Both the position numbers and the translations under genes were made by a program. From positions 178,403 to 242,402 of the forward strand of contig CALMGM010000009.1 of NCBI GenBank assembly GCA_937863685.1: DNA of 64,000 nucleotides. Reading direction: 5' to 3'. The notes under the pieces are model-generated. The model had not been told where the DNA came from, searched no databases, and saw nothing but the letters and a program-made list of their open reading frames with translations. Each line of letters starts with the position of its first letter. The first letter of the stretch is position 1. Shown here piece after piece: positions 12,160 to 63,704 of this stretch. The DNA comes from an uncultured bacterium (GTDB lineage Bacteria > Edwardsbacteria > AC1 > EtOH8).

Positions 12160-13047
12160 ATGTTTTTCATATTCACACTGATAATCGCCGCCGTAGCCGG
12201 ATACATGTGGTTCTCGGCCGGCAAAAAGACCCAGCAGTTCAACGAGGCCTTTGCCAAGAACAAGGCCATCTCCGGCATCGTAGCCGTATTCTTCCTGGTG
12301 ATCGCGGTATTCCAGATGCTGACCGTCATCCCGGCCGGGCACGTAGGCGTGGTGGATTTCTTCGGACACGTGTCGCCGGGGACCCTCAAGGCCGGCATCA
12401 ACCTGCGCAACCCGCTGGCCCGGATCGTAAAAATGTCCATCAAGACCCAGGAGCTCACCGAGGACATGCCGGTGCCGTCCAAAGAGGGCTTGACCGTCCA
12501 GCTGGACGTCACCACCCTGTTCCACCTGGATCCGGAGAAGGCCGCCGAGATATACAAGACTGTGGGGGCCGATTACGCCAATATCATCCTGGTCCCCCAG
12601 TTCCGTTCGGTCTGCCGGGGGGTCACCGCCAATTATGAGGCCAAGGCCCTCTACACCGCCCAGCGGGAACTGCTGGCCAAGGCCATTCAGCAGGAGTTGA
12701 ACGGCCTGATCAACGCCCGGGGCATCATCATCGAAAGCGTTCCCCTTCGCCGGGTGGGCCTGCCCAAAAAGGTGACCGACGCCATCGAGGACAAGCTCAA
12801 GGCCGAACAGGAAAGCCAGCGGATGGAATGGGTGCTGACCAAGGAAAAACAGGAGGCCGAAAGGAAACGCATCGAGGCCAAGGGCATCTCCGACTTTCAG
12901 AACATCGTGGCCCAGGGCATCAGCCAGCCGTTGCTGAGGTGGAAAGGCATCGAGGCCACCGAGAAGCTGGCCAGCTCGCCCAACGCCAAGGTCATAGTCA
13001 TCGGCGCCGGCAAAGACGGCCTGCCGATAATCCTGGACACCCAGTAG
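12160..13047 (+). CDS. SPFH/band-7 (prohibitin/HflC-like) membrane protein
   Basis: An N-terminal TM helix is followed by an SPFH domain (PAGHVGVVDFFGHV...LTVQLDVTTLFHLDPEKAAEIYKTVGADY) and a C-terminal coiled coil. Confidence 0.75.
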   Translation: MFFIFTLIIAAVAGYMWFSAGKKTQQFNEAFAKNKAISGIVAVFFLVIAVFQMLTVIPAGHVGVVDFFGHVSPGTLKAGINLRNPLARIVKMSIKTQELTEDMPVPSKEGLTVQLDVTTLFHLDPEKAAEIYKTVGADYANIILVPQFRSVCRGVTANYEAKALYTAQRELLAKAIQQELNGLINARGIIIESVPLRRVGLPKKVTDAIEDKLKAEQESQRMEWVLTKEKQEAERKRIEAKGISDFQNIVAQGISQPLLRWKGIEATEKLASSPNAKVIVIGAGKDGLPIILDTQ

Positions 13048-13454: not shown

Positions 13455-15722
13455 ATGCACAAGATCACCCTTTTCTCCTGCCTGGCCGCCATCACCATAC
13501 TGACCGCCGGCCTCGATAATGCCGGACCTAAAACGTCTTATCTTAAGACCGGCCAAGGCGAATATTTCCGCTACCAGATCGTCGACCTTAGCCTGAAACC
13601 GGATTCCCTGCTTAAGATCAACCCCGACTCCGCCTCTTTGCAGGTGACATTCCGCCACGGGGACAGCCTGATAGCCGGGGTCGGCAGTTGTGCCTCTATA
13701 AGCCTAAAATATGACAAGACCGACAGCACTTGGCGCGGGACCTGGGCCATGCCCTGGAACCCGCCGCTGGGCGTTTACCTGGCCGTTCTGGATGCTTATT
13801 CCGGCAACAACCTTAAGGACTCTGCAACTCTACTTCTTTCCGATTCCGTTACTTTCATTGTCAGATCCCGCACTCCTCAGGCGATCCCCGACGGTTTCTG
13901 CGCCATGACCATCGAGAGCGCCGGGAACCTGCTCAACGCCAAACTTCCTTCTCCGGTTAAGAACCAGAAACATTGGACCAATTTTACCGATTGGGCCAAA
14001 TACCTGGGGGCCGATGCCGTCTGGTACTCGGTGGGCTGGACCATTGAGGGATATCCCGGGACCAACGACAAGAACCCCTGGGTGAAAGAGAATTTCAAGG
14101 TGTTTCCCAAACTGGCCGAAGAGTGCCATAAACAGGGACTCAAATTCGGCGGGTACGTGGGCAGCTATCTTTTATGGGGCCCCACCCTGCGGAAACTGAA
14201 ATATGACTATTCGCTGGAGGCCAAGAACGGCCGGGTGTTCCCCAACCACCATGTCAGCCTGGACGATCCCAAGCGCCGGGCCGATATCGTAACGATACTG
14301 AAACTGCTGCAGGAAGACCCCAATGTGGACTTCATCGGGCTGGATTACATCCGGCCGGGCGCCGGCGGATACGAAACGGCGGACGAATTCGTGGAGCAGA
14401 TGAACATCGAGCGACCGTCCGGATGGGGCAAATGGAGCAAAAAGGACCGGATGCTGTGGGTATCCCGGCAGGTAAAACCGATGTCAGACAAGCCCATCCG
14501 GGCCCGCTGGCAGTGGTGGCAGGCCCACCGCTCGGCCACCGCGGTGGAAAGGCTGTTAGCCGAGGCTGGCGTAAGCAAACCGGTGTGGGGATTCACCCTG
14601 GGCTGGGACAAGGGCCACGAGCACGGCCAGGACCCGCCGATGATGAACGATGCCGGACTGGACCTGGATGCCATGATGATCTACGAATCCAACGCCCAGC
14701 AGTGTTTCGAGATGACCAATGCCTGGTCCAAATATCTCAAAGGCAACGAGGCTCAGATGATGGCCGGCCAGCAGATAGACTGGGTATTACTGCAGAAAAG
14801 CACCGTTCCTCCTGCCCCCGAAGAATTTTACTGGCGTCTGACCGACGCTATCAAGGGGACCTCCGACGGCGGGCGGGTAAAAGGTCTGTTCTGGCACGAC
14901 ATGTTCCGCGGCATCAAGGGACGCAAGGGTCCGCACACCAGCCAGGAATGGCTGATCGCGGGAGCCGCGGCCTTCTCCAAGCTCAGGCAGGAGCTGGGCA
15001 CCCTGCCAATGGACACCAGGATGATCTCCCAGGGTGATAAAACCGCCCTGGCTATAAAATTCCACCGGCCATTGGAAAAGATCCGCATAGAGCCGCTGAC
15101 CGCCGCCACTCCCGGCAGGATCAGGGACATTCAGATCCCTGCCGGCACCACCGATACCATCATCACTTTGGGGAGATTCCCGGTCAACGGGCTGGCGGCC
15201 TGCCGCCTCACCTGGGGCAGCACTGATCACCGGGACCAGCTGGTGGTCTTCAGCTATTACCCCCGCCCCTACTCCGATAATCCCTTCCGCCCCCTCCAAT
15301 CCTTCCGGGCCGGCGGCGATCTTTTGATCGCCGTTCAACCGGGGAGAAATAATCTGGCAAAAGCAATATACGCCGGAAGGATAGCCCGAAAGAGCGGTTT
15401 GGTGGTCAACAAAACAGCTTTGGACAGTCTTTATCCTTCCCTGGGACATAAATACTCCAAATTATTGATAATCGCCGGAGACAGCATGTCCGCCTCCGAA
15501 AGAACGGCTTTGAAAAATTTTCTCCTGGCATTCCCCGATTTCCCCACAGCCCTGTCTGTCAACCGGGATAGTCTGGCCAGCTTTACAGCCATAAAAACCG
15601 TATTGTTGAAGGGCGATCTGACCGAAGATCCGGAGCTGCTTAGGTTTATCATGGGCATAGCTTATGCCCCTAAAAAGAACGGAGCGGCTGGGACAAAGCT
15701 GTCGTTATGTCTTGACAAATAG
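13455..15722 (+). CDS. Secreted large protein, possibly a glycoside-hydrolase-like TIM barrel (GHL10/YddW-like)
   Basis: Signal peptide present. The FIGLDYIRPG motif resembles the DUF187/GHL10 family. The assignment is tentative. Confidence 0.4.
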   Translation: MHKITLFSCLAAITILTAGLDNAGPKTSYLKTGQGEYFRYQIVDLSLKPDSLLKINPDSASLQVTFRHGDSLIAGVGSCASISLKYDKTDSTWRGTWAMPWNPPLGVYLAVLDAYSGNNLKDSATLLLSDSVTFIVRSRTPQAIPDGFCAMTIESAGNLLNAKLPSPVKNQKHWTNFTDWAKYLGADAVWYSVGWTIEGYPGTNDKNPWVKENFKVFPKLAEECHKQGLKFGGYVGSYLLWGPTLRKLKYDYSLEAKNGRVFPNHHVSLDDPKRRADIVTILKLLQEDPNVDFIGLDYIRPGAGGYETADEFVEQMNIERPSGWGKWSKKDRMLWVSRQVKPMSDKPIRARWQWWQAHRSATAVERLLAEAGVSKPVWGFTLGWDKGHEHGQDPPMMNDAGLDLDAMMIYESNAQQCFEMTNAWSKYLKGNEAQMMAGQQIDWVLLQKSTVPPAPEEFYWRLTDAIKGTSDGGRVKGLFWHDMFRGIKGRKGPHTSQEWLIAGAAAFSKLRQELGTLPMDTRMISQGDKTALAIKFHRPLEKIRIEPLTAATPGRIRDIQIPAGTTDTIITLGRFPVNGLAACRLTWGSTDHRDQLVVFSYYPRPYSDNPFRPLQSFRAGGDLLIAVQPGRNNLAKAIYAGRIARKSGLVVNKTALDSLYPSLGHKYSKLLIIAGDSMSASERTALKNFLLAFPDFPTALSVNRDSLASFTAIKTVLLKGDLTEDPELLRFIMGIAYAPKKNGAAGTKLSLCLDK

Positions 15723-15778
15723 GCTTTTATGAATTATCATTAAATGTTAAAACTTGTTAAACTTTTATAAGATATCCA

Positions 15779-16762
15779 TTGTCTAAAGTCATGATACGGA
15801 AAATGATAAAATTCATAGTTATTTGCTTCTTATCCCTGCCCTTCCCGGCGATTGCCTCAAAATATGCCGGTGAATTTCTGAATGTCGGCCTGGGATCGGC
15901 CGCCATGGGCATGGGCGGAGCTTATGTATCTATCGCCAGTGATGCCTTTGCCGGTTACTGGAACCCGGCCGGGACCTTTTCGGCCGGCCATCAGATAATC
16001 TTTGCCCATTCCAGTAATTTCGGTTCGCTGGTGGCCCATGATGCCCTGGGATATACTCGCCCGATGGGAACCTATGCCCTGGGGCTGATTTACCTGCGCC
16101 TGGCGGTAAAGGACATCCCCTACACCAACGATGCCCTGATAGACCTGAATAACAACGGGATCATGGATGCCGGGGAAAGGCTGGATGAATCCAGGATCGT
16201 CTACAACGACGATGTGGAATCGGCATTGCTGCTGAATTACAGCCGCAAATACGGCCGGAATACCCGTTGGGGGCTGAACCTGAAAATGGTCAATAAATCA
16301 GTAGGGCCCAGCTCGGCCTGGGGACTGGGGTTGGATGCCGGATGGATGACCAATTGGCAGGAAAATGTCAGATTCGGCATAAACCTGCAGGATATGACAA
16401 CCACCTATCTGGCCTGGGACAACGGCACCAAGGAAATGATCTCTCCCACTATCAGGATTGGAACATCCTACCACCCCTCCATAGCCGGAGAAAGGCCGCT
16501 GGCTCTGGCCATGGGCGGGGACTTTAGATTTGAAGGCCGGCAGTCGGCTTCCAATTATCATCTAGGGAGCACCAGTTTAGACCTTCATTTTGGGCTGGAA
16601 TATTTGCTGAAGAAACGGATCGCTCTGAGACTGGGCGGCGATCAGGGCCGGTTCACCGCCGGGGTCGGCCTGAAAATAGGGCGCTTCAATTTCGATTACG
16701 CTTATTTGGCACATAAATATCTGGAAAGTTCCACCCGTCTCTCCGGCTCCTTCACATTTTGA
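15779..16762 (+). CDS. PorV/PorQ-family (T9SS-associated) outer-membrane beta-barrel protein
   Basis: Signal peptide, then GLGSAAMGMGGAYVSIASDAFAGYWNPAG, the family's Gly-rich N-terminal motif, then an amphipathic beta-strand pattern ending in an aromatic residue. Confidence 0.5.
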   Translation: MSKVMIRKMIKFIVICFLSLPFPAIASKYAGEFLNVGLGSAAMGMGGAYVSIASDAFAGYWNPAGTFSAGHQIIFAHSSNFGSLVAHDALGYTRPMGTYALGLIYLRLAVKDIPYTNDALIDLNNNGIMDAGERLDESRIVYNDDVESALLLNYSRKYGRNTRWGLNLKMVNKSVGPSSAWGLGLDAGWMTNWQENVRFGINLQDMTTTYLAWDNGTKEMISPTIRIGTSYHPSIAGERPLALAMGGDFRFEGRQSASNYHLGSTSLDLHFGLEYLLKKRIALRLGGDQGRFTAGVGLKIGRFNFDYAYLAHKYLESSTRLSGSFTF

Positions 16763-16787
16763 CAATTTTTTAATCTATAACCGCCTG

Positions 16788-17387
16788 ATGATAATTCAAC
16801 GCGAAATACGACGGAAGGCATTCCACATACTGGCTGGCCTATCGCTTCCGGCGCTTTATTATGTATTCATGCTGTTCCACCAGACCACCCTGGCCAAATG
16901 GATAATCTTTGCCGCCACCGCGGCCATTCTGGTGATAGATATCATCCGCCTTAAGCACCTGTTCATTAAAATCATTTTCCTGGATATCTTCGGCCCCCTT
17001 TTGCGGAAACATGAGATCTCGGCCCTCACCGGCGCCACCTATCTGATGATCGCTTCCCTGGCATGTTTTGCGCTTTTCAGGGACTCCATCGCAATATTGG
17101 CCATCTCCTACCTGATAGTCGGGGATTCCCTGGCGGCCCTGGTGGGCCGAAGCGTCGGCCGGACCAAATTCTTCGAAAAATCGTTCGAAGGCGCCGGGGC
17201 CGGCCTGGCTGGATGCCTGGCCGTCGGGCTGATAATAATGCACCTGCCCGGGACCGACCTTGCTTTCTGGGAAATGGCCGCCGGAGCGGCCACCGCGGCG
17301 ATCGTAGAGATCATGCCCATACCGCTGGATGACAACATCAGGATACCATTGGCCTCGGGAGCGGTGATGCACCTGTTCTTCCATTGA
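16788..17387 (+). CDS. CTP-dependent polyprenol/dolichol-kinase or CdsA-family (CTP_transf_1-like) membrane protein
   Basis: Multi-TM protein with C-terminal IVGDSLAALVGRSVGRTK...KSFEGAGAGL. This matches the GD..A...G...K / KSxEG signature of that family. Confidence 0.45.
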   Translation: MIIQREIRRKAFHILAGLSLPALYYVFMLFHQTTLAKWIIFAATAAILVIDIIRLKHLFIKIIFLDIFGPLLRKHEISALTGATYLMIASLACFALFRDSIAILAISYLIVGDSLAALVGRSVGRTKFFEKSFEGAGAGLAGCLAVGLIIMHLPGTDLAFWEMAAGAATAAIVEIMPIPLDDNIRIPLASGAVMHLFFH

Positions 17388-17444
17388 TCATTTAACAAAT
17401 CAATATTAACTAAATCAAATTTAAACCTAACGAAGGAGCAGACT

Positions 17445-18941
17445 ATGGTCTTTAAGAAAATCTTTGCGCTTATCTTGGTCCTGGCCTTAACCGCGGCAGT
17501 TTCCCTTGCCGCCAAGGATAAAGCTGCCAAAGAAGACCCCGAGATGCTGTTATCACAGATGGCCCAGCTGAGCCTGAAGTATCAGGATTACCCCCAGGCC
17601 ATATCCACATATCAAAAACTGCTGGAGAACTACCCCAAGGCTAAACTGGCCAAGGATTATACCTACTACCTGGCCCTGGCCCTCGAACGTTCCAATAATT
17701 TCCAGACTGCCGCCGAGAACTACCAGAGAGTGGTCACCGACTATAAGAATGCTAAATCCGATATCCCCGGCATAGACAGCCTTTCTCTGGACGGGGTCGG
17801 CCGCTGCTTCAACAAGAACTTCAAGGAATATGCCGCCGTCATCAACGGACAGCCCATGACCAAGCTGGAGCTGGATGCCGAACTGGAGAAGGTCCCCTCC
17901 TATTACCGGCCCCAATTTGAGGGCGACGCCGGGCGGAAGAAATTTCTGGACCAGATCATCGAACGCAAACTGCTGTATGCCGAGGCCCAAAAACAGGGTA
18001 TGATGAACAACCCCGAGACCTACCAGCGCATCCAGGACACCGAGCAGAACCTGCTCATCAGGGGGCTTTATGACCAGGAGGTGGTCAAAAAGTCCCAGCC
18101 CTCGGAAAAAGAGATCAAGGATTATTACAAAAAGAACATCAAGGAATACCAGACCCCGGAGCAGGTCAGGGCCAGCCAGATCGTGGTTGACAATTACGCC
18201 CGGGCCCAGATGATAGCCAAGGAATTGAGTTCCAAAAAAGGCCTGCCCTTTGATACGCTGGTAGCCAAGTATTCCACGGCCCCCAATGCCCGGAGCGGCG
18301 GCAGCCTGGGGTTGATCAACAAGGATCAAAAACCGGAACCGGAAGCGGTTCTGTTCAAGATCGCCAAAGGCAAATATTCTAAGGTGATTCCGACCGAGGC
18401 CCGCTTTGCGGTGGTCAAGCTGAACAAAAAGGAAGGCAAGAAACTGCACCTAAGCTGGATCGTTGCCGGGACCGAGGATGAGGCCAAAAAGATAATTGCC
18501 GAGATCAAGGCTTCCCCCGATTCATTCGGGGCCATAGCCGGCAAAAGATCCCTGGATGCCAGCAAGGACCAGGGAGGTGATCTGGGACTGGTGGCCAAGG
18601 ATGAAGTAGCGCCGGAGATTTTCAAGGCTGCCACCGGACTGAAAGCCGGAAAATTCACTGCCAAGCCGGTCAAGTACTATGCCAAATATACCATTTACCG
18701 GATTGACGACAAGATCAAGGCCGGGGTCAAGGATTTTGCCCAGGTCCAAGTCCAGATAACCGGACAACTCCAGAAGGATCGCCAGCAGGCACTTTATGAC
18801 GGTCTTTTAAAGCGGCTGAAGGACGAGGCCAAAATAGAATACTTCCTCGACGCCCCGGAAGCTGATAAAACGGAAGGCAAGCCCGTTGAGAATCCGGAGC
18901 CCGCAACCAAGCAAAAAAAGAAAGCTAAACCCAGAAAGTAA
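17445..18941 (+). CDS. SurA/PpiD-like periplasmic chaperone with two parvulin PPIase domains
   Basis: Signal peptide present. Two parvulin signatures were seen (ARSGGSLGLINKDQ and DQGGDLGLVAKDE), plus a Lys-rich C-terminal tail. Confidence 0.75.
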   Translation: MVFKKIFALILVLALTAAVSLAAKDKAAKEDPEMLLSQMAQLSLKYQDYPQAISTYQKLLENYPKAKLAKDYTYYLALALERSNNFQTAAENYQRVVTDYKNAKSDIPGIDSLSLDGVGRCFNKNFKEYAAVINGQPMTKLELDAELEKVPSYYRPQFEGDAGRKKFLDQIIERKLLYAEAQKQGMMNNPETYQRIQDTEQNLLIRGLYDQEVVKKSQPSEKEIKDYYKKNIKEYQTPEQVRASQIVVDNYARAQMIAKELSSKKGLPFDTLVAKYSTAPNARSGGSLGLINKDQKPEPEAVLFKIAKGKYSKVIPTEARFAVVKLNKKEGKKLHLSWIVAGTEDEAKKIIAEIKASPDSFGAIAGKRSLDASKDQGGDLGLVAKDEVAPEIFKAATGLKAGKFTAKPVKYYAKYTIYRIDDKIKAGVKDFAQVQVQITGQLQKDRQQALYDGLLKRLKDEAKIEYFLDAPEADKTEGKPVENPEPATKQKKKAKPRK

Positions 18942-18964
18942 CATTATTTCCCGGTGATATCGAT

Positions 18965-18997
18965 AAGAGGCTGGATATTTCCAGCCTCTTATTTATT
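18965..18997 (+). terminator. Rho-independent terminator after the surA-like gene
   Basis: AGAGGCTGG-ATATTT-CCAGCCTCT stem-loop followed by a TATTTATT run. Confidence 0.7.
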
Positions 18998-19025
18998 GAC
19001 TTTGGCAAAAGGATTAAGCTATAAT
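18996..19025 (+). promoter_or_regulatory. Near-consensus sigma70 promoter (TTGACT-N18-TATAAT) for galT-glgA(-mglA)
   Basis: The hexamers were read directly from the sequence, ~35 nt upstream of the galT start. Confidence 0.55.
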
Positions 19026-19058
19026 AACCATAAGACTTTCAGCAATAAATATATAATT

Positions 19059-20060
19059 ATGCCTGAATTAAGAAAAGACCCCATCATCGGCCGCTGGGTA
19101 ATCATCTCCACCGAAAGGGGCAAACGCCCGGTGGATTATGAAGTGATACCGGAGCCTACCCGGAAAGGCGGCTGCCCCTTCTGCTACGGAAATGAAGCGC
19201 TTACCCCTCCGGAGATCCTGGCCATCCGTCCGCCGGACTCCCCGCCCAACGGCCCTGGCTGGCAGCTACGGGTGGTGCCCAACAAGTTCCCGGCCCTCCG
19301 GGTCGAAGGGGATCTGGACAAATCCGGAGAAGGACTTTACGATAAAATGACCGGGATCGGGGCCCATGAGGTCTTCATCGAAAGCCCGGTTCACGATCTT
19401 CACTTGGCCGACATGGATGCGGCCCATATTACCGAATTGCTGCAGGCCTTTGCCTCACGGATGCAGGACCTGAAACGTGATATCCGGCTGAAGTACCTGA
19501 TGGTATTCAAGAATCAGGGCTTCCGGGCCGGGGCCACCATGGAACACAGCCATTCCCAGCTTATAGCCACCCCCATCGTACCCAAGACCATCAAGGAGGA
19601 GTTGGAGGGCTCCCTGGAATATTACAGATACAAAGAACGCTGCGTTTTTTGCGACATCATCAAGCAGGAGATCGAGGATACCCGACGGCTGGTTATCGAA
19701 AACCAGCGGTTCATCAGCATAGTCCCCTATGCCGCCCGGTTCCCTTTCGAGACCTGGATATTGCCCAGGGATCACATGTCAAGTTTTGAGGACAGCACGG
19801 CTCCGGATCTGAGAGTGCTGGCCGAGACCCTCAAGGGAACTTTGCTGCGTATGAACCGCTCGGTCAACCGCCCCCCCTATAACCTGGTTCTTCACACTGC
19901 CCCTTGCGACCGTCCCAGGATCGAGCATTACCACTGGCACATGGAGATCATGCCCCGCTTGACCAGGGTGGCCGGATTTGAAAGGGGCACCGGGTTTTAT
20001 ATAAATCCCACTCCGCCTGAGGAGGCGGCAGCTTTCTTGCGGGAGGTTGATCTAAGTTGA
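19059..20060 (+). CDS. galT: GalT-family (HIT-like) hexose-1-phosphate nucleotidyltransferase
   Basis: CPFCxG zinc motif (GCPFCYGNE) and the HSHSQL histidine triad active site. Start placed at MPELRKDPIIGRW rather than the upstream in-frame Met. Confidence 0.75.
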   Translation: MPELRKDPIIGRWVIISTERGKRPVDYEVIPEPTRKGGCPFCYGNEALTPPEILAIRPPDSPPNGPGWQLRVVPNKFPALRVEGDLDKSGEGLYDKMTGIGAHEVFIESPVHDLHLADMDAAHITELLQAFASRMQDLKRDIRLKYLMVFKNQGFRAGATMEHSHSQLIATPIVPKTIKEELEGSLEYYRYKERCVFCDIIKQEIEDTRRLVIENQRFISIVPYAARFPFETWILPRDHMSSFEDSTAPDLRVLAETLKGTLLRMNRSVNRPPYNLVLHTAPCDRPRIEHYHWHMEIMPRLTRVAGFERGTGFYINPTPPEEAAAFLREVDLS

Positions 20061-53024: not shown

Positions 53025-53369
53025 TTATTTCAGGATCAACGCGATGATGGAGAACCAGATCATCAGCAGGTAGAAGATCCCCAGGATGGCAAAGGCCAGT
53101 GAACCGCCGGGTATGGTGGCGATCACCAGGGCCGCCACGTGCATCATGGTGAAGAACAGGGCAGCATAAAAGAACTGGCGGTAGCCCACCTGGATCTTGC
53201 GGGCGGGAAAGTCCTCGCCGCAGGCGTACTGGGCCAGCTTGGCGCCGTCAGCCTTGAGCTTGGGGGCCATCACATCGCCCATCTTATAGATAAGATAGGA
53301 GATCAGGGCGAAGAGGCCGAACCCGATGAACGGGGTGATCAGTATATTCCACTGGCTGAAAATTGACAT
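53025..53369 (-). CDS. NuoA/ND3-like membrane subunit
   Basis: KLAQYACGEDFP matches the ND3 K.SPYECGFDP motif. Three TM helices. Confidence 0.7.
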   Translation of the reverse strand: MSIFSQWNILITPFIGFGLFALISYLIYKMGDVMAPKLKADGAKLAQYACGEDFPARKIQVGYRQFFYAALFFTMMHVAALVIATIPGGSLAFAILGIFYLLMIWFSIIALILK

Positions 53370-53509: not shown

Positions 53510-53809
53510 CTATCCCTTCAGCTTGGTCAGGCTGCGGACGTCCAGACTGCCGGTGTTGCGGTAGGCGTTGATCACCAAGGCCAGGGCCACCGCCACGATG
53601 GAGACCTCGATCACGATGAAGGTGATCACCAGGCTCTGCGAGAAGAAGGTCTCCCCCCGGGCGTATCCGGCGGTAATGAATGATAGTACCGCCGATTTGG
53701 CCATGATCTCCAGGCCTATCAGCAGCTTGATCATGTTACGGCTGGTCAGCAGGCAGTACAGCCCGATGAAGAACAGCAGACCGACGAATATCAGATTGGT
53801 CACTACCAT
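53510..53809 (-). CDS. NuoK/MnhC-like membrane subunit
   Basis: 99 aa with three TM helices and a conserved mid-membrane Glu (GLEIMAKSA). Confidence 0.7.
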   Translation of the reverse strand: MVVTNLIFVGLLFFIGLYCLLTSRNMIKLLIGLEIMAKSAVLSFITAGYARGETFFSQSLVITFIVIEVSIVAVALALVINAYRNTGSLDVRSLTKLKG

Positions 53810-54336
53810 AGCTTGTGCCCTCCATCCTTGGCTTTTTCAGCGTCTATCTTATCCTGGGCGGTGAGCGGCTTCTCCCGGAACAGGGCCAGCACCCCGAACA
53901 CGCCTCCAAAGATCACCGCTATCTGGCCGATCAGATCCATGGAGCGGATGCCCCACAGGGTGGCCCCGAAGCTGGAGGTGGCATTGCCGTATCCGGCCGG
54001 GGTGTTGGAGAACAATCCCTTCATCACCAGCAGGTCGATGATCCCGAACAACACCAGGAACAGCGGAAACAGGTACAGCGGCCAGCGGGATTCCTTGACC
54101 GGCTCCTCGTCCTTGGTCAGGGCGATGGTGGAAACGAACAGCACCGTGATCAGCCCGGCCACCACCGACAGTTCGAACACCGCGGCATAGGGCGAATCCA
54201 TCCGGTACAGCACCACCGCCAGCACGGCGCTCATGAAGGCCAGGCTCAGGGCCGCCCGCAGCAGGTCCTTGAAGAACACCGCCATGCAGGCGAAACCGGC
54301 CAGCATCAATAGCAGTATAAGGTTTATTATGTCCAT
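53803..54336 (-). CDS. NuoJ-like (MnhB-related) membrane subunit
   Basis: The AAVFELSVVAGLITVLFV segment resembles the NuoJ Y.GA..VLF motif. Confidence 0.6.
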   Translation of the reverse strand: MDIINLILLLMLAGFACMAVFFKDLLRAALSLAFMSAVLAVVLYRMDSPYAAVFELSVVAGLITVLFVSTIALTKDEEPVKESRWPLYLFPLFLVLFGIIDLLVMKGLFSNTPAGYGNATSSFGATLWGIRSMDLIGQIAVIFGGVFGVLALFREKPLTAQDKIDAEKAKDGGHKLW

Positions 54337-54396
54337 TTTGACTCCAGTATGTATATTTGAAGTTTACGATGTTATGAAGTTGTGAGGTTCAGATTA

Positions 54397-54774
54397 TTAA
54401 AAGCAGAACTTATCAGCCTTAAAATCCATAGCGTTCAACATGCCGATAATATTTTCGTATTCACGGTCAAGTTTATTAAAAAAGTCCTCAGAAATATAGT
54501 TGCACGACAAACAAAACTCAAGCCAAGTCTGGGTTTCAGCAGCTTCCTGCATGCTGTCTGACAATTTGTTGATAAATACTTTCTTGTATTTTCTTTTACG
54601 CCAAGCTTCAGATAGATTGGAGCATACCGAACGGGAAGACCTTCTGATTTGATCCGTCAACTAATATTTTTCGTCTGAGGGAAAAGTCTTACTTATCTCA
54701 AATATCTCCATGGCACAGCAAAATGCCGCTTTGTAAACCTTTCAGTCTCTTACCGTACGTATCCTATCGCTCAT
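54397..54774 (-). pseudogene. Four-helix-bundle protein (TIGR02436 / 23S rRNA intervening-sequence-type) gene disrupted by two in-frame stops (TGA at 54742-54744, TAG at 54661-54663, + strand coordinates)
   Basis: Manual minus-strand translation gives MSDRIRTVRD*KVYKAAFCCAMEIFEISKTFPSDEKY*LTDQIRRSSRSVCSNLSEAWRKRKY...EDFFNKLDREYENIIGMLN. It is colinear with canonical family members (..[43 protein letters not shown]..). It is embedded in an AT-rich ~500 bp spacer. Confidence 0.7.
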
Positions 54775-54832
54775 CGCTACTCTCGATCCGATCGTCTTAT
54801 CTTCTCAACATCAGATCTTCAATCAGCCAACA

Positions 54833-56314
54833 TCATTGTCCGAACATTGAAAAACCGTTGGCTCCGATGGCATTGCTCAGAGCGGTCATCCCCGGCTGGA
54901 TCAGCTTGGCAGTCACCCAGGGATAGAACAGGCCCACCAGCAGGCACAGGGTCGCCAGACAGAAAGTGGCCAGGGCCATGTAGAACGGCACTTCCTTGAC
55001 CTTCTCTAAGCCCACCGCCAGTTTACCGAAGAAGGCCTTCCTCTGCATCAGCAGGAAGTACCACAGGGTCAGGATGCTGGTGCCGATGGCGATGGCCGCC
55101 ACTCCGACATGATTGGCCTCCACCAGGGCAACGATGATCAGCAGTTTGCTCCAGAACCCGTTGAAGGGCGGTATCCCGGCGATGGAGAAGGTGCCGATGG
55201 TGGTGGTCAGGCTGGTGATGGGCAGCTTGTGGCCCACCCCGCCGAGTTTGGAAAGGTCCCTGGTGCCGGTGGCATACTCGGTGGCCCCGGCGTCAAGGAA
55301 CAGCAGGCTCTTGAAGGTGGCGTGGTTGAACAGGTGGAACAGGGCTCCCATGATCCCCAGCGGTGTTCCCAGGCCCAGGCCCACCACTATATACCCGATC
55401 TGGCTGATGGATGAGTAGGCCAGCATTCGTTTGAAATCGTTCTGCCCCAGGGCGATCACCGCGCCGATGACCATCGAGGCCACCCCCAGCCAGATCATGG
55501 CCTGGGAGACCGAGGCCGGCAGGCCGAAGATGTCGTAGACCACCCGGGTCAGGGCGTAGATGCCGGAGACCTTGATCAGCACTCCGGACAGCATGGCCGA
55601 AATGGGAGCCGGGGCCGAGGGATGGGCGTCCGGCAGCCAGGCATGGAACGGCACCATGGCCGCCTTCAGTCCGAAGCCCATCAGGAACAGGGCCAGGCAC
55701 AGGCCGATCAGCTTGACATTCATGCCGGTTCCCACCATCGAAGCCAGCTCCTTGAAGTTCATGGTGCCGGTCATCAGATAGATGAATGACATGGCCAGCA
55801 GGATGCCGGTAGTGGCGACCACCGACAGCATCAGGTACTTGAAGGCCGCCTCCACCTCATCGTGCTTCTGGCCGAAGGCCACCAAAGCGTACGAGGCCAC
55901 CGCCGCCACTTCCAGGAAGACGTACATGTTGAACAGGTCGACGGTCAGCACCAGCCCGTTCATCCCGGCCACCATCAGCAGGAACAGGGCGTAGTAAGAT
56001 CCCTTGGCCCCGTAATGTTCCATGTAGTTGATGGAATAGATGCAGGCAAACAGCGAGATCAGGCTGATGGTGATCAGCAGCAACAGCGAGAAGCCGTCCA
56101 GCATCAGTCCGGCCTTGAGGGGCAGACCGATGGCCGCGGCATCCCACAGGATGCGGTGCCCGGCCGATATCAGGCGGATCTGGGACAGGCTCAAGGCCAG
56201 CATGGCCGCCATGGTGGCCACCCCCAGGATATCGGGCAGTCCTTTCCACAGCCTGGAGACCAGCGGCATCAGGGCTGCCATGGCCAGGGGTATGACTATG
56301 AATAAAAGCAACAT
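54833..56314 (-). CDS. NuoN/MnhD-like antiporter-type subunit
   Basis: 493 aa with ~14 TM helices and the conserved broken-helix Lys/Glu pattern of the Mrp/NuoLMN family. Confidence 0.75.
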   Translation of the reverse strand: MLLLFIVIPLAMAALMPLVSRLWKGLPDILGVATMAAMLALSLSQIRLISAGHRILWDAAAIGLPLKAGLMLDGFSLLLLITISLISLFACIYSINYMEHYGAKGSYYALFLLMVAGMNGLVLTVDLFNMYVFLEVAAVASYALVAFGQKHDEVEAAFKYLMLSVVATTGILLAMSFIYLMTGTMNFKELASMVGTGMNVKLIGLCLALFLMGFGLKAAMVPFHAWLPDAHPSAPAPISAMLSGVLIKVSGIYALTRVVYDIFGLPASVSQAMIWLGVASMVIGAVIALGQNDFKRMLAYSSISQIGYIVVGLGLGTPLGIMGALFHLFNHATFKSLLFLDAGATEYATGTRDLSKLGGVGHKLPITSLTTTIGTFSIAGIPPFNGFWSKLLIIVALVEANHVGVAAIAIGTSILTLWYFLLMQRKAFFGKLAVGLEKVKEVPFYMALATFCLATLCLLVGLFYPWVTAKLIQPGMTALSNAIGANGFSMFGQ

Positions 56315-60066: not shown

Positions 60067-61050
60067 CTATTTATCCCGTGTTTTGTAAAATTGTTCGAAC
60101 ATCTTTTTTGCGGTTTTCGATTTTACAAGAGGCACCTCTGTGACTAATGGTTTGATGGCTGAAAAAAATGTAACGAGACGATAGCCTATAAGTGGGGAAT
60201 CGGTGCCTTCTGTCCGCTTATACTTACCATTGTAATAAATGTCTAGTGAGTATTTCGGTCCGGTTGAATCGTAAGTATCTTTTTTAAAGCGCATCCTATC
60301 AAGAGAACTGGTTTTTAACAGGTCTATAAAACGCCTATACAGTGAATCGCTCAAACAACCCTGATAATATCCCTGTTTCAATGCGTTTTTGTTGCCATAC
60401 TTATAAAGGCCCCATAATTGCATTGCGAATTTATTTCCATATAAATACATGGTTTTAGTGCTGTCAATTATTATCCTTAGGTCCCTTTCTATGAGCTTGC
60501 CTTGGGGTAAATATATCCCCCCTGTGTTGCCGCTTCCTATCGTCCCACCAGTGCCCTGTAGCCTGTTATGTTCGCAAAATAATAATCGGTCGAAAGAAAA
60601 TAATGTATCTTTTAAAATAGAGTATAGGGTTATCGTACGAGTACTATCAAATAAGTACCCGTCCTCAACAGCATGTCTATATTGCTTCCACTTGCTGTTG
60701 CGATAGGGACGGAGAACAAGCGAATCTGGATTCTGGTGTTCGATGATAAAGCAAACACCTATAGTATCAGCCGGTTGAAGATTATCTTCCGACATCGTGT
60801 CTGACAGGGATTGTGCCAGGCTACCCCCTCGTATCAAACGGGGCGTGAATAATTCCAGGCTATCCTCCCTCAAGGTATAATTAAACACATTCCAGTCGGT
60901 GCTGAAATCAAAAAATGCTACCGTATCAACAATGCGAAGGCTTTCAGAACTATTGCCCACCCAAAACCCTAAAATCGTATTTGCGTCCCTGGCGCCTGTC
61001 GCAATAGAAGTCAGCGAGACGCATAACGCAATAGTAAGAAATATTTTCAT
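60067..61050 (-). CDS. Secreted hypothetical protein in a low-GC island
   Basis: Signal peptide MKIFLTIALCVSLTSIATGA. No recognisable domain. Visibly A+T-rich codon usage. Confidence 0.5.
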   Translation of the reverse strand: MKIFLTIALCVSLTSIATGARDANTILGFWVGNSSESLRIVDTVAFFDFSTDWNVFNYTLREDSLELFTPRLIRGGSLAQSLSDTMSEDNLQPADTIGVCFIIEHQNPDSLVLRPYRNSKWKQYRHAVEDGYLFDSTRTITLYSILKDTLFSFDRLLFCEHNRLQGTGGTIGSGNTGGIYLPQGKLIERDLRIIIDSTKTMYLYGNKFAMQLWGLYKYGNKNALKQGYYQGCLSDSLYRRFIDLLKTSSLDRMRFKKDTYDSTGPKYSLDIYYNGKYKRTEGTDSPLIGYRLVTFFSAIKPLVTEVPLVKSKTAKKMFEQFYKTRDK

Positions 61051-61635: not shown

Positions 61636-63285
<1,650 letters not shown>

Positions 63286-63329
63286 TTATTCCTCTATATG
63301 ATTTTTATTTTTTGGCTTTAAATTGCTCT

Positions 63330-63384
63330 GTCATTCCCGTGAAAACGGGAATCCAGACTGGATACCCGCCTGCGCGGGTATGAC
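63330..63384. repeat. Bipartite hairpin repeat (GTCATTCCCGTGAAAACGGGAATCCAG + GATACCCGCCTGCGCGGGTATGAC) between groES and groEL
   Basis: Same architecture as 52949-53013. The stems show compensatory changes. Confidence 0.75.
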
Positions 63385-63398
63385 GAAAAGCGTTCTAT

Positions 63399-63704
63399 TT
63401 ACTTTTCGTGGATGACGGCCATGACGTCGTCGGACGACATGATCAGGTATTCCACGTCGTCGATCTTGACCTCGGTGCCGGAGTATTTGCCGTAAAGGAC
63501 CTTGTCGCCCTTCTTGATGTCCATCTCCATCCTGGTCCCGGAATCGGAGATCTTGCCCGGGCCCACCGCCACCACCTCGCCCTCCATGGGCTTTTCCTTG
63601 GCGGTGTCGGGAATGATGATCCCGCCTTTTTTGGTTTCCTTGGCCTCTGCCGGCTTAACCAATACCCTGTCGCCTAATGGCTTGATTTTGGTGACCGTTG
63701 ACAT
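63399..63704 (-). CDS. groES: Co-chaperonin GroES
   Basis: MSTVTKIKPLGDRVLVKP...EKTKGGIIIPDTAKEKP. Confidence 0.95.
   Translation of the reverse strand: MSTVTKIKPLGDRVLVKPAEAKETKKGGIIIPDTAKEKPMEGEVVAVGPGKISDSGTRMEMDIKKGDKVLYGKYSGTEVKIDDVEYLIMSSDDVMAVIHEK

What the first reader, a model, noticed from the sequence alone, without database searches (positions are those of the whole stretch)
54337..54832. AT-rich ~500 bp insertion inside the hydrogenase operon carrying a four-helix-bundle (23S-rRNA-IVS-type) gene with two in-frame stops at conserved positions
The spacer between the NuoJ-like and NuoN-like genes is conspicuously A+T-rich compared with the flanking ~60% GC genes. It contains a 125-codon reading frame colinear with TIGR02436 four-helix-bundle proteins. 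That frame is interrupted by TGA (at the conserved Leu of DLKVW) and TAG (at the conserved Gly of KYGLTSQ). There are no frameshifts. These genes are known as small selfish-looking inserts, including inside rRNA intervening sequences. Finding a recently inactivated copy mid-operon in an energy-conserving hydrogenase is unusual. It may mark a mobile insertion event, or it may carry an internal promoter or terminator affecting the stoichiometry of the two halves of the operon.
Basis: seen in the sequence. Interest (0 to 1): 0.7.

Follow-up and report, generated by a model that had tools for sequence, protein, structure and literature searches.

The report
Old rRNA-IVS-type gene cassette, freshly inactivated
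The AT-rich 496-bp spacer inside this hydrogenase operon is a small four-helix-bundle gene cassette of the kind known from 23S rRNA intervening sequences; it has sat at this exact spot in related bacteria for a long time, and only in this genome has its gene been knocked out by two stop codons.

Summary
Window 54337-54832 (minus strand, 38% GC against about 60% in the flanks) holds a 125-codon PF05635/TIGR02436 frame. It is broken only by TGA at codon 11 and TAG at codon 38, both at invariant positions.

The "recent insertion" reading fails its own test. Intact co-linear orthologues occupy the same junction in four lineages of Candidatus Edwardsbacteria hydrogenase operons. They evolve under purifying selection (dN/dS 0.06-0.13, like the neighbouring genes). 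The junction is tight and empty in other phyla.

The site is nevertheless dynamic:
- One close relative lacks the cassette.
- One near-identical operon carries a 75%-identical allele, swapped exactly between the flanking stop and start codons.
- One more distant relative has an MNT/HepT toxin-antitoxin pair at the same junction.

Across 81 related cassettes the gene is enclosed by inverted arrays of 7-8-nt repeats, purine-rich upstream and pyrimidine-rich downstream. It is co-directional with its neighbours. This matches the published Coxiella 23S IVS layout.

In the window the arms are weak (z = -2.3). AT-richness is a stable trait of the cassette and of all spacers here. No promoter, terminator or Rfam signal stands out.

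Verdict: a recent pseudogene of a long-resident IVS-type passenger cassette. How the cassette acts (RNA stem or DNA-level repeat) is inferred, not shown.

The parts
54337..54832 (-). Whole cassette: the intergenic spacer between the antiporter-like 493-aa gene and the MbhD/NuoJ-like 177-aa gene.
   Evidence: It is 496 bp and 38.3% GC. Homologous cassettes occupy the same junction in L001, L002, L003, L004, L005, L089, L169-L174 and L006. The junction is empty in L010 and in other phyla.
54775..54832 (-). 5' arm or leader: a purine-rich run of about five octamer units, (TTGAAGAT)(CTGATGTT)(GAGAAGAT)(AAGACGAT)(CGGATCGA). It also holds the weak Shine-Dalgarno-like GAGAG upstream of the pseudogene ATG.
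   Evidence: An inverted repeat pairs 54786-54812 with 54368-54394 (27 nt, 70% complementary). The duplex of the two spacers is -27.2 kcal/mol, z = -2.3, reached by 11 of 500 shuffles. The pairing appears in both the MFE and centroid folds.
54397..54774 (-). Four-helix-bundle (PF05635 / TIGR02436, 'S23p') pseudogene: 125 codons plus stop.
   Evidence: The frame scores 110.1 bits against PF05635 and 100.1 bits against TIGR02436. It is 92-94% identical to the intact orthologues P0001-P0003. The model of the intact orthologue is a four-helix bundle (pLDDT 95) with best PDB matches 2GSC, 2RLD and then Avd 4DWL.
54742..54744 (-). In-frame TGA at codon 11, where orthologues have the invariant Leu codon TTA. 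The adjacent codon changed GAT to GAC.
   Evidence: The stop and its orthologous codon are shown. TGA is a normal stop here: the 493-aa neighbour ends in TGA.
54661..54663 (-). In-frame TAG at codon 38, where orthologues have the invariant Ser codon TCA (a two-nucleotide change).
   Evidence: The stop and its orthologous codon are shown. TAG is a normal stop here: the 177-aa and NuoK genes end in TAG.
54337..54396 (-). 3' arm or trailer: a pyrimidine/A-rich run of octamer units, (CTGAACCT)(CACAACTT)(CATAACAT)(CGTAAACT)(TCAAATAT). It is followed by the GGAG Shine-Dalgarno sequence (54345-54342) of the downstream 177-aa gene.
   Evidence: The 8-nt periodicity scores 8.0 over +7..+32. The arm is complementary to the 5' arm. 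The sequence was read.
54833..56314 (-). Upstream neighbour: a 493-aa Mrp/NuoN-type antiporter-like subunit.
   Evidence: PF00361 scores 248 bits. The protein is 96-99% identical in lineage I relatives.
53803..54336 (-). Downstream neighbour: a 177-aa NuoJ/MbhD-like membrane subunit.
   Evidence: PF00499 scores 41 bits and PF13244 scores 28 bits.

Best explanation
The spacer is a long-resident passenger cassette of the same kind as the ORF-bearing intervening sequences (IVS) of 23S rRNA. It carries a roughly 125-codon gene for a four-helix-bundle protein, probably pentameric like its solved relatives (S23p / TIGR02436, fold-related to DGR Avd). The gene is enclosed by an upstream purine-rich arm and a downstream complementary pyrimidine-rich arm, each built of 7-8-nt tandem units. 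The cassette is inserted co-directionally into what was a tight gene junction of a group-4 [NiFe]-hydrogenase (Mbh/Mrp-type) operon in a Candidatus Edwardsbacteria genome.

Shown:
- The cassette entered this junction before the four sampled operon lineages diverged.
- Its gene has been kept intact under purifying selection in relatives.
- It has at least once been deleted and at least once been replaced as a precise unit.
- In this genome the gene alone has very recently acquired two nonsense mutations, while the operon genes remain intact.

Inferred:
- The cassette has no promoter of its own and rides on operon transcription.
- In the transcript the two arms pair and enclose the ORF. In the Coxiella 23S IVS such a stem is cut by RNase III. 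Cutting here would release the cassette RNA and split the operon mRNA into an antiporter-module half and a catalytic-module half.
- The protein probably binds nucleic acid, possibly the repeated units of its own arms.
- Loss of the protein in this genome is tolerated, or even favoured.
For: Identity: the frame matches PF05635 and TIGR02436 well above their cut-offs. The model of the orthologue is a four-helix bundle (pLDDT 95) that matches 2GSC and 2RLD (TM 0.75-0.92) and Avd 4DWL/8UB8 (TM 0.76-0.89).

Organism and operon: the 493-aa gene is 96% identical to that of a Ca. Edwardsbacteria MAG. The large subunit has the RVCGICSNVH and DPCLSCTDR nickel-iron motifs, and HycI is present.

Age: intact orthologues sit at the same junction in lineages I-IV. 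HB identity tracks the flanks between lineages: III-IV 89% against 86-90%, and allele B-II 80% against 82%. dN/dS is 0.06-0.13 for HB and 0.06-0.13 for the flanks.

Recency of inactivation: the window branch carries 6 synonymous, 2 missense and 2 nonsense changes, against 30:11 and 16:6 synonymous:non-synonymous in the neighbours.

Insertion: outgroup junctions are 3-21 nt.

Turnover:
- L010 is 96-98% identical to L006 in the flanks but has only a 38-nt spacer.
- L001 against L089 is 93-100% identical outside the cassette and 53-80% identical exactly between the stop and start codons.
- L011 has MNT/HepT at the same junction.

Cassette architecture, from 81 cassettes:
- Upstream purine fraction is 0.72-0.80, against 0.5-0.57 in controls.
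- There is lag-7/8 periodicity.
- In 53 of 81 cassettes the inverted-repeat score beats all 20 shuffles (3.9 expected).
- 56 of 81 upstream and 53 of 81 downstream arms are 7/8-nt periodic (9% in shuffles).
- Neighbours are co-directional in 50 of 52 cases upstream and 38 of 46 downstream.

Arm complementarity at this site: z = -4.3, -3.4 and -3.7 in lineages II, III and IV, and -2.3 in the window.

Precedent: the Coxiella IVS has a 28-bp terminal inverted-repeat stem cut by RNase III, an AG-rich region plus tandem heptamers before the S23p ORF, and a decaying ORF (PMC4990558).
Against: - The window's own arms are only marginally better than chance (inverted-repeat score 9.0 against shuffle 6.8 +/- 1.2; z = -2.3), and allele B is not significant (z = -1.1).
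- Mismatches in the arms show no excess of G.U over A.C (88 against 87). Selection for pairing in the sense RNA is therefore not demonstrated. The repeats could act at the DNA level or simply reflect how the cassette arose.
- The whole-spacer fold is no more stable than shuffles (z = +0.26).
- No RNA or protein data exist for this organism.
- The two stops cannot be checked against reads.
- Long retention under purifying selection does not fit a purely neutral passenger.
Confidence: 0.7

Rival explanations
1. The gene is intact, and the two stops are sequencing, assembly or consensus errors.
For: Every orthologue found (11 contigs) is intact. The window branch otherwise shows purifying selection. 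Two nonsense changes among four non-synonymous codon changes is more than expected (P about 0.03).
Against: Both stops come with extra neighbouring substitutions (GAT TTA to GAC TGA; TCA to TAG), which is not a typical single-base error. Mixing synonymous Leu or Ser codons from co-assembled strains cannot produce TGA at codon 11 or TAG at codon 38 (inference from the codons seen). The flanking genes have no defects.
Confidence: 0.17
2. This is a recent mobile insertion marking a new transposition event.
For: The cassette is absent from other phyla and from L010. It is AT-rich. The site shows turnover.
Against: The same cassette lineage sits at the same junction in four operon lineages whose core subunits differ by up to 25% in protein sequence, and it co-diverges with them. 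The compositional offset is stable in all lineages. No paralogue is present in the window.
Confidence: 0.04
3. The flanking arrays are DNA-level terminal inverted repeats, such as binding or recombination sites. The cassette moves or is exchanged as DNA, and RNA pairing is incidental.
For: - There is no G.U over A.C excess in arm mismatches (88 against 87).
- Replacement and deletion are cassette-precise.
- The arms consist of several short tandem units, which resemble repeated protein-binding sites (an analogy from my own knowledge, not tested).
- The same junction was used by a different selfish module in L011.
Against: No recombinase or transposase is associated with the cassette. No target-site duplication could be defined. 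In the one studied case (Coxiella) the stem is a demonstrated RNase III substrate in RNA. Strict co-directionality with neighbours (50 of 52) fits dependence on host transcription. Precise replacement can also arise by homologous recombination in the conserved flanks.
Confidence: 0.3
4. The spacer works as an internal promoter or terminator that tunes the stoichiometry of the two operon halves.
For: It sits between the antiporter-like module and the MbhD/NuoK/catalytic module. It is AT-rich.
Against: There are 3 promoter-like and 2 terminator-like hits in 1.6 kb, against 1.1 +/- 1.1 and 1.4 +/- 1.2 in shuffles. Only one minus-strand (operon-strand) promoter-like hit lies in the cassette upstream of the 177-aa gene's start codon (54521-54493, 9 of 12 matches); another overlaps that start codon (54355-54326), and the third is on the plus strand. 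Neither terminator-like hit lies in the spacer. Operons of other phyla and L010 work without the spacer.
Confidence: 0.08
5. The four-helix-bundle protein is a lineage-specific accessory factor of this hydrogenase.
For: It has been retained at one operon position under purifying selection across four lineages.
Against: - It is missing in L010, which is otherwise 96-98% identical to the cassette-bearing L006.
- It is missing in all other phyla.
- It is inactivated here while all hydrogenase genes stay intact.
- Close homologues (72%) sit in unrelated exopolysaccharide gene arrays.
- The family was first described in rRNA IVSs.
Confidence: 0.07
6. The stops are read through by programmed recoding or an alternative genetic code.
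For: There are two in-frame stops and no frameshift.
Against: TGA and TAG terminate the conserved neighbouring genes at their orthologous ends. Orthologues encode Leu and Ser at these positions with ordinary codons.
Confidence: 0.02

Closest known systems
ORF-bearing intervening sequences (IVS) of 23S rRNA, e.g. the 428-nt Coxiella burnetii helix-45 IVS with the S23p ORF (PMC4990558); IVS ORFs of the same protein family are also reported there for Leptospira, Brucella and Xanthomonas
   Same: - The protein family is the same (PF05635/S23p).
- The size class is the same (about 430-500 nt).
- The ORF is enclosed by terminal inverted repeats.
- There is an AG-rich region and tandem 7-8-nt repeats just upstream of the ORF.
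- The element sits in the sense orientation within a host transcript.
- The ORF is prone to decay: Coxiella strains show deletions, and this window shows two stops.
   Different: - The host transcript is a polycistronic mRNA spacer, not helix 25 or 45 of 23S rRNA.
- RNase III excision is untested here.
- In relatives the ORF is clearly under purifying selection, whereas in Coxiella it appears unexpressed and decaying.
- The window's arms are much weaker than the 28-bp Coxiella stem.
TIGR02436 / PF05635 'four helix bundle protein' genes scattered in bacterial genomes (solved structures 2GSC of Xanthomonas XCC0516 and 2RLD of Bacteroides BT_0352, both deposited with five chains)
   Same: The frame matches the HMMs at full length, and the predicted fold superposes at TM 0.75-0.92.
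   Different: The window copy is a pseudogene. The function of the family is unknown, so no functional comparison is possible.
Avd, the accessory variability determinant of diversity-generating retroelements (4DWL; RT-Avd-RNA complex 8UB8)
   Same: The four-helix-bundle fold is the same (TM 0.76-0.89). Pfam and CDD treat the two as related (PMC10053308). Avd works in a ribonucleoprotein, which motivates the nucleic-acid-binding inference.
   Different: NF033474 scores 20.7 bits against a cut-off of 80. Sequence identity is about 10%. No reverse transcriptase, template repeat or variable repeat is adjacent; the neighbours are hydrogenase subunits.
Small selfish modules lodged in operon spacers (toxin-antitoxin pairs such as MNT/HepT, BrnT/A and HicA/B)
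   Same: They occupy the same or neighbouring junctions of this operon in relatives: L011, L002, L169 and L001. They are co-directional and show presence/absence polymorphism.
   Different: The cassette is a single gene with no toxin or antitoxin signature. It has flanking inverted repeat arrays, which toxin-antitoxin modules lack.

Membership tests
PF05635 / TIGR02436 four-helix-bundle (S23p) protein family | Score above the curated cut-off over the full length of the profile | tested here: met
   PF05635 scores 110.1 bits (cut-off 33.8) over profile positions 1-106 of 106. TIGR02436 scores 100.1 bits (cut-off 24) over 1-104 of 109.
PF05635 / TIGR02436 four-helix-bundle (S23p) protein family | Four-helix-bundle fold like 2GSC and 2RLD | tested here: met
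   The model of the intact orthologue P0001 has pLDDT 95.1 and four long helices. It matches 2GSC at TM 0.85/0.90 and 2RLD at 0.76/0.84. The window copy itself is 94% identical to P0001.
PF05635 / TIGR02436 four-helix-bundle (S23p) protein family | Uninterrupted coding sequence (a functional member) | tested here: not met
   There is a TGA at codon 11 and a TAG at codon 38. The window copy is therefore a pseudogene member.
23S rRNA IVS-type element | S23p-family ORF enclosed by terminal inverted repeats | tested here: inconclusive
   In the window the arms are 27 nt and 70% complementary, with duplex z = -2.3 (11 of 500 shuffles). The feature is clear in orthologous cassettes of lineages II-IV (z -3.4 to -4.3) and in 53 of 81 family members.
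23S rRNA IVS-type element | Purine-rich region with tandem heptamer or octamer repeats upstream of the ORF | tested here: inconclusive
   The family-wide signal is strong. In the window the octamer phasing is visible by eye in the 5' arm but scores only 5.5, while the 3' arm scores 8.0.
23S rRNA IVS-type element | Located in helix 25 or 45 of a 23S rRNA gene | tested here: not met
   The cassette lies between two protein-coding genes. There is no Rfam hit in 54200-54950.
23S rRNA IVS-type element | Excised from the host transcript by RNase III | not testable with these tools
   This needs RNA end mapping or an in vitro RNase III assay. It has been shown only for Coxiella (PMC4990558).
DGR accessory protein Avd | Equivalog HMM score and adjacent reverse transcriptase, template repeat and variable repeat | tested here: not met
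   NF033474 scores 20.7 bits against a cut-off of 80. PF22296 scores 17.8 against 40. All neighbouring genes are hydrogenase or antiporter subunits.
Recently formed pseudogene | Disabling mutations at conserved positions, intact close orthologues, and little excess of non-synonymous change | tested here: met
   The stops fall at the invariant Leu11 and Ser38. P0001-P0003 are intact at 92-94% identity. The window branch has 6 synonymous, 2 missense and 2 nonsense changes.
Recently formed pseudogene | Read-level support for the disabling mutations | not testable with these tools
   No reads are available. None of the three window products queried (493-aa, NuoK, truncated ORF) is on record in the assembly collection.
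Group 4 membrane-bound [NiFe]-hydrogenase operon (host context) | Large subunit with N- and C-terminal CxxC nickel-iron motifs, NuoB-like small subunit, Mrp-type antiporter subunits and an endopeptidase | tested here: met
   The large subunit has RVCGICSNVH and DPCLSCTDR. Pfam finds PF00346 + PF00374, PF01058, PF00329, three PF00361 genes, PF00420, PF00146 and HycI PF01750.

The most novel reading that the evidence does not exclude
Four-helix-bundle (S23p/TIGR02436) genes in general may not be loose 'hypothetical genes'. They may be the cargo of one widespread class of IVS-like cassette: an ORF enclosed by inverted arrays of 7-8-nt repeats. Such a cassette would settle co-directionally into tight junctions of highly transcribed units, both rRNA helices and operon spacers. 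It would be removed or neutralised at the RNA level through its arms. It would persist for long periods under selection on its own, probably pentameric, nucleic-acid-binding protein, perhaps binding about one repeat unit per subunit. It would be swapped or lost as a precise unit. On this reading the Edwardsbacteria hydrogenase junction is a natural time series of the element: four co-diverging alleles, one replacement, one deletion and one fresh knockout.
Probability: 0.3. Interest if true: 0.7.

Novelty: new variant of a known kind. Interest (0 to 1): 0.45.

Why it matters
The single pseudogene is a minor annotation point. The comparison around it matters more. It links the 23S rRNA intervening sequences to the many orphan 'four helix bundle protein' genes found inside operons: both have the same layout of an ORF between inverted arrays of short repeats.

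It also shows that such a cassette can live for a long evolutionary time inside an essential energy-conserving operon, with its gene under purifying selection. That is unexpected for something regarded as junk, and it argues that the protein does something selectable.

The site offers intact, replaced, deleted and freshly inactivated states in near-isogenic backgrounds. This is the material needed to test what the protein and the arms do.

For genome annotation, AT-rich spacers with these genes should not be read as recent horizontal insertions.

Tried and rejected
- **Rfam.** A permissive E-value scan of 54200-54950 gave no match.
- **Promoter and terminator scan.** Hits did not exceed shuffled expectation.
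- **Whole-spacer RNA fold.** It is not more stable than shuffles (z = +0.26). Only the terminal pairing is of interest.
- **Source genome.** I looked up exact window proteins (the 493-aa, NuoK and truncated 87-aa products) to find the source genome or identical strains. None is on record, so the stops could not be cross-checked.
- **Paralogues.** None is present in the 64-kb window.
- **G.U against A.C mismatches.** I tested whether arm mismatches favour G.U over A.C, which would indicate selection on the sense RNA. They do not (88 against 87). This weakens the pure RNA-stem reading and is why the DNA-level rival is kept at 0.3.
- **100-nt duplex energies.** Energies on 100-nt flanks proved a poor statistic because control flanks also give about -40 kcal/mol. 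I replaced it with local inverted-repeat scores and spacer-only duplexes.
- **Target-site duplication.** None could be defined from L006 against L010. The L010 spacer only weakly resembles the distal 3' arm of L006 (56 of 2000 shuffles).
- **Simple vertical co-divergence.** I considered and rejected this as the full history, because allele A against allele B is 74-76% identical inside 96-99% identical flanks.
- **Literature.** 'TIGR02436' gave no paper, and '23S rRNA-intervening sequence protein' gave five, none describing operon-embedded cassettes.
Full report
**1. What is in the sequence**

The operon runs on the minus strand. The interval 54337-54832 is exactly the gap between two genes. 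Upstream is a 493-aa Mrp/NuoN-type antiporter-like gene (54833-56314), which ends in TGA. Downstream is a 177-aa NuoJ/MbhD-like gene (53803-54336).

The gap is 496 bp at 38.3% GC. The neighbours are 60-61% GC, with GC3 of 85-86%.

One minus-strand frame runs from ATG 54774-54772 to TAA 54399-54397. It is interrupted only by TGA at 54744-54742 (codon 11) and TAG at 54663-54661 (codon 38). With the stops masked, the 125 residues match PF05635 over the whole profile (110 bits, E 8e-32) and TIGR02436 (100 bits). The DGR Avd equivalog scores far below its cut-off (20.7 bits against 80).

The residue replaced by TAG is an invariant Ser in this subfamily (KYSLTDQ), not Gly.

**2. Host context**

The surrounding genes, in transcription order, are:
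- three antiporter-like subunits;
- the cassette;
- MbhD/NuoJ-like, NuoK-like and a conserved 114-aa unknown;
- NuoB-like and NuoC-like;
- a large subunit with the nickel-iron motifs RVCGICSNVH and DPCLSCTDR;
- NuoH-like, a ferredoxin-type subunit and the HycI endopeptidase.

This is a genuine group-4 membrane-bound [NiFe]-hydrogenase operon. The closest genome contig belongs to a Candidatus Edwardsbacteria MAG, with 96% protein identity in the 493-aa gene.

AT-richness is not distinctive here. All spacers of the operon are 28-43% GC, and the window has about 50 AT-rich islands.

**3. The cassette is old, not recent**

A protein search found intact 125-aa proteins that are 92-94% identical to the repaired frame. 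Every one of them is encoded at the same junction of the same operon (L001-L005).

More distant homologues also sit at that junction: P0005 (73%), P0010 (74%), P0034 (70%) and P0012 (71%) (L006, L089, L169-L174).

The operons fall into four lineages whose 493-aa proteins differ by up to 25%. Between lineages, the identity of the four-helix-bundle (HB) protein tracks that of the flanks:
- III against IV: 89% for HB, 86-90% for the flanks;
- allele B against II: 80% for HB, 82% for the flanks;
- I against IV: 73-75% for HB, 75% for the flanks.

Within lineage I, dN/dS of the HB gene is 0.06-0.13, the same as its neighbours.

In the outgroup phyla (Aminicenantes, Anaerolineales, WOR-3 and others) no HB match was found. 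In the roughly 15 outgroup operons where the junction could be resolved, it is 3-21 nt.

So the cassette is an insertion, but one that predates the split of the sampled Edwardsbacteria lineages. Its gene has been kept by selection.

**4. The inactivation is recent and private**

I counted positions where the window differs from three agreeing allele-A relatives. The HB gene has 6 synonymous, 2 missense and 2 nonsense codon changes. The neighbours have 30:11 and 16:6 synonymous:non-synonymous changes.

A gene drifting neutrally for that whole branch would be expected to show roughly three non-synonymous changes per synonymous one (a rule of thumb, not computed here). Constraint therefore lasted until shortly before sampling.

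The stops arose as TTA to TGA (with the adjacent GAT to GAC) and TCA to TAG (two bases). Two nonsense hits among four non-synonymous changes is somewhat more than chance (P about 0.03). That is compatible with relaxed selection after the first hit, with mild selection for loss, or with error.

TGA and TAG are ordinary stops of the neighbouring genes, so recoding is not an option. Reads are not available, and the genome is not in the searchable collections.

**5. The site is dynamic**

- L010 (Ca. Edwardsbacteria Prado126) is 96-98% identical in nucleotides to L006 in the flanking genes. Yet it has only a 38-nt spacer where L006 has the 486-nt cassette. The L010 spacer weakly resembles the distal 3' arm of L006, which favours deletion.
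- L089 is 97-99% identical in protein to the window clade in both flanks but carries an HB allele only 74-76% identical. Nucleotide identity between L001 and L089 is 93-100% outside the cassette. It drops to 53-80% exactly between the upstream stop and the downstream start. The cassette was replaced as a unit.
- L011, a more distant Edwardsbacteria MAG, has an MNT nucleotidyltransferase plus a HepT toxin at the same junction.
- Relatives also carry other passengers in other spacers of this operon (methylase/HD-CE/ORC-like block, CsgG, HicA, BrnT).

**6. Cassette architecture**

Inverted-repeat searches showed that the HB gene is bracketed by complementary arms in the window, in L001 and L002, and in the two unrelated copies of L007 (an exopolysaccharide gene array). 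The arms are made of short tandem units.

I then collected 80 further loci from metagenomes and analysed 81 non-redundant cassettes. The results were:
- The 50 nt before the start codon are 72-80% purine, against 50-57% for control ORFs in the same loci.
- The first 40 nt after the stop are 38-45% purine.
- Both flanks show lag-7/8 self-similarity.
- The local inverted-repeat score of cognate flanks averages 12.3, against 8.6 for non-cognate pairs and 7.0 for shuffles.
- 53 of 81 cassettes exceed all 20 of their shuffles (3.9 expected), and 27 of 81 exceed 10 non-cognate partners (7.4 expected).
- 56 of 81 upstream and 53 of 81 downstream arms contain 7- or 8-nt tandem runs (9% in shuffles). 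The median is about 4.3 units.
- The period is the same in both arms in 35 of 40 cassettes.
- The neighbouring open frames are on the same strand in 50 of 52 cases upstream and 38 of 46 downstream.

This is the layout published for the Coxiella burnetii 23S rRNA IVS. That element is 428 nt. It has a 28-bp stem of terminal inverted repeats cut by RNase III, an AG-rich region and tandem heptamers (GACAGAT) before the S23p ORF, and an ORF that is decaying in some strains (PMC4990558).

At the hydrogenase junction, arm complementarity by lineage is:

| Lineage or allele | z | Shuffles reaching the observed energy (of 500) |
|---|---|---|
| II (L169) | -4.3 | 0 |
| III (L173) | -3.4 | 1 |
| IV (L006) | -3.7 | 0 |
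| A, window | -2.3 | 11 |
| A, L001 | -2.5 | 7 |
| B (L089) | -1.1 | 70 |

The window arms are thus a degenerate version: octamer units are still visible, the best inverted-repeat pair is 27 nt at 70% complementarity, and the spacer-to-spacer duplex is -27.2 kcal/mol.

**7. How it most likely works, and what is not shown**

Shown:
- identity of the gene;
- its fold (pLDDT 95; 2GSC and 2RLD at TM 0.75-0.92; Avd 4DWL and the RT-Avd-RNA complex 8UB8 at TM 0.76-0.89);
- its age, selection, turnover and architecture.

Inferred:
- The cassette is transcribed with the operon. It is on the same strand, its spacers are 58-60 nt, and no promoter or terminator signal exceeds chance.
- The arms pair in the transcript and enclose the ORF, as in rRNA IVSs.
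- RNase III could then release the cassette RNA and separate the antiporter-module and catalytic-module mRNAs.
- The protein binds nucleic acid, perhaps the arm units.

Against an RNA-only view, arm mismatches show no G.U excess over A.C (88 against 87), and purine-purine mismatches are common. The 5' purine bias and the DNA-level repeats may therefore matter in their own right. I keep a DNA-level (recombination or binding-site) role for the arms as a serious rival.

A hydrogenase-specific role of the protein is unlikely. It is absent in L010 and in other phyla. Close homologues sit in unrelated gene arrays. It is knocked out here with the operon intact.

**8. Composition**

In every lineage the HB gene stays far below its neighbours. 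GC is 37-51% against 60-68%, and GC3 is 39-65% against 85-99%. All six synonymous window-branch changes are AT to GC. Low GC is a persistent property of the cassette, not a clock for recent arrival.

**9. Comparison with what is known, and novelty**

The gene belongs to a known family. The element is of the known IVS type but sits in an mRNA spacer. It fails the Avd membership test.

In the searchable literature I found no description of operon-embedded S23p cassettes with inverted repeat arrays, nor of their long-term same-site persistence and replacement. That is absence from the held library only.

I rate the window feature as a new variant of a known kind. Its interest is moderate. The pseudogene itself is ordinary. 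The comparative picture it opens is worth a follow-up.

Noticed in passing
L001:3274-8224 (between the 626-aa and 493-aa antiporter-like genes of the orthologous operon): A four-gene block interrupts the same hydrogenase operon in the closest relative. It consists of a C5 DNA methylase, an HD-CE protein, an ORC/CDC6-like ATPase and an unknown 323-aa protein. In the window the two genes are adjacent (32-nt spacer). The block looks like a defence island inserted in an operon.
   Followed up: partly
L011:5147-5969: In a more distant Ca. Edwardsbacteria MAG, the junction right after the 493-aa gene carries an MNT (Pol-beta nucleotidyltransferase) plus HepT toxin-antitoxin pair instead of the four-helix-bundle cassette. 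The same landing site is used by a different selfish module.
   Followed up: partly
L002:8632-9118; L169:2785-3355; L001:11846-13030 and 15380-19163: Other spacers of the orthologous operons hold BrnT-type toxin pairs, HicA, CsgG, a TPR protein and a caspase-like peptidase. The window's operon is the 'cleanest' version. Operon spacers in this clade seem unusually tolerant of passengers.
   Followed up: no
L006 (GCA_009668885.1, SBEJ01000095.1): This contig is labelled Rhodocyclaceae bacterium. Its operon is 96-98% identical in nucleotides to that of a Ca. Edwardsbacteria MAG (L010), so the label is probably a mis-binning or mislabel.
   Followed up: no
window 60067-61050 (minus strand): A 327-aa ORF with 41% GC (GC3 42%), a signal-peptide-like N-terminus and no Pfam match lies just upstream of the operon, between it and groES/groEL (61636-63704). 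It is another compositionally foreign gene.
   Followed up: partly
window 53025-53369 (minus strand): A 114-aa gene with no Pfam or NCBIfam match is conserved in position, at 47-57% identity, in the orthologous operons of several phyla. It is likely an unannotated membrane subunit of this hydrogenase type.
   Followed up: partly
L007:6777-7166 and 12225-12608: Two four-helix-bundle cassettes, each with long purine/pyrimidine repeat arms, are interleaved co-directionally among glycosyltransferase genes of an exosortase (EpsH/EpsI) polysaccharide cluster. A PDDEXK_3 gene and a HicA toxin are also present.
   Followed up: partly
window 54397-54774 compared with L001, L002 and L005: All six window-specific synonymous changes in the pseudogene are AT to GC at third positions. 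Three of the changes are clustered multi-nucleotide events (GATTTA to GACTGA, TCA to TAG, GGT to TTT).
   Followed up: partly
L013, L017, L027, L037, L040 (junction after the 493-aa gene): In some outgroup operons the 493-aa reading frame appeared to run on by about 420-477 nt over the start of the MbhD-like gene. This may be a gene fusion or overlap, or an artefact of my simple frame extension.
   Followed up: no
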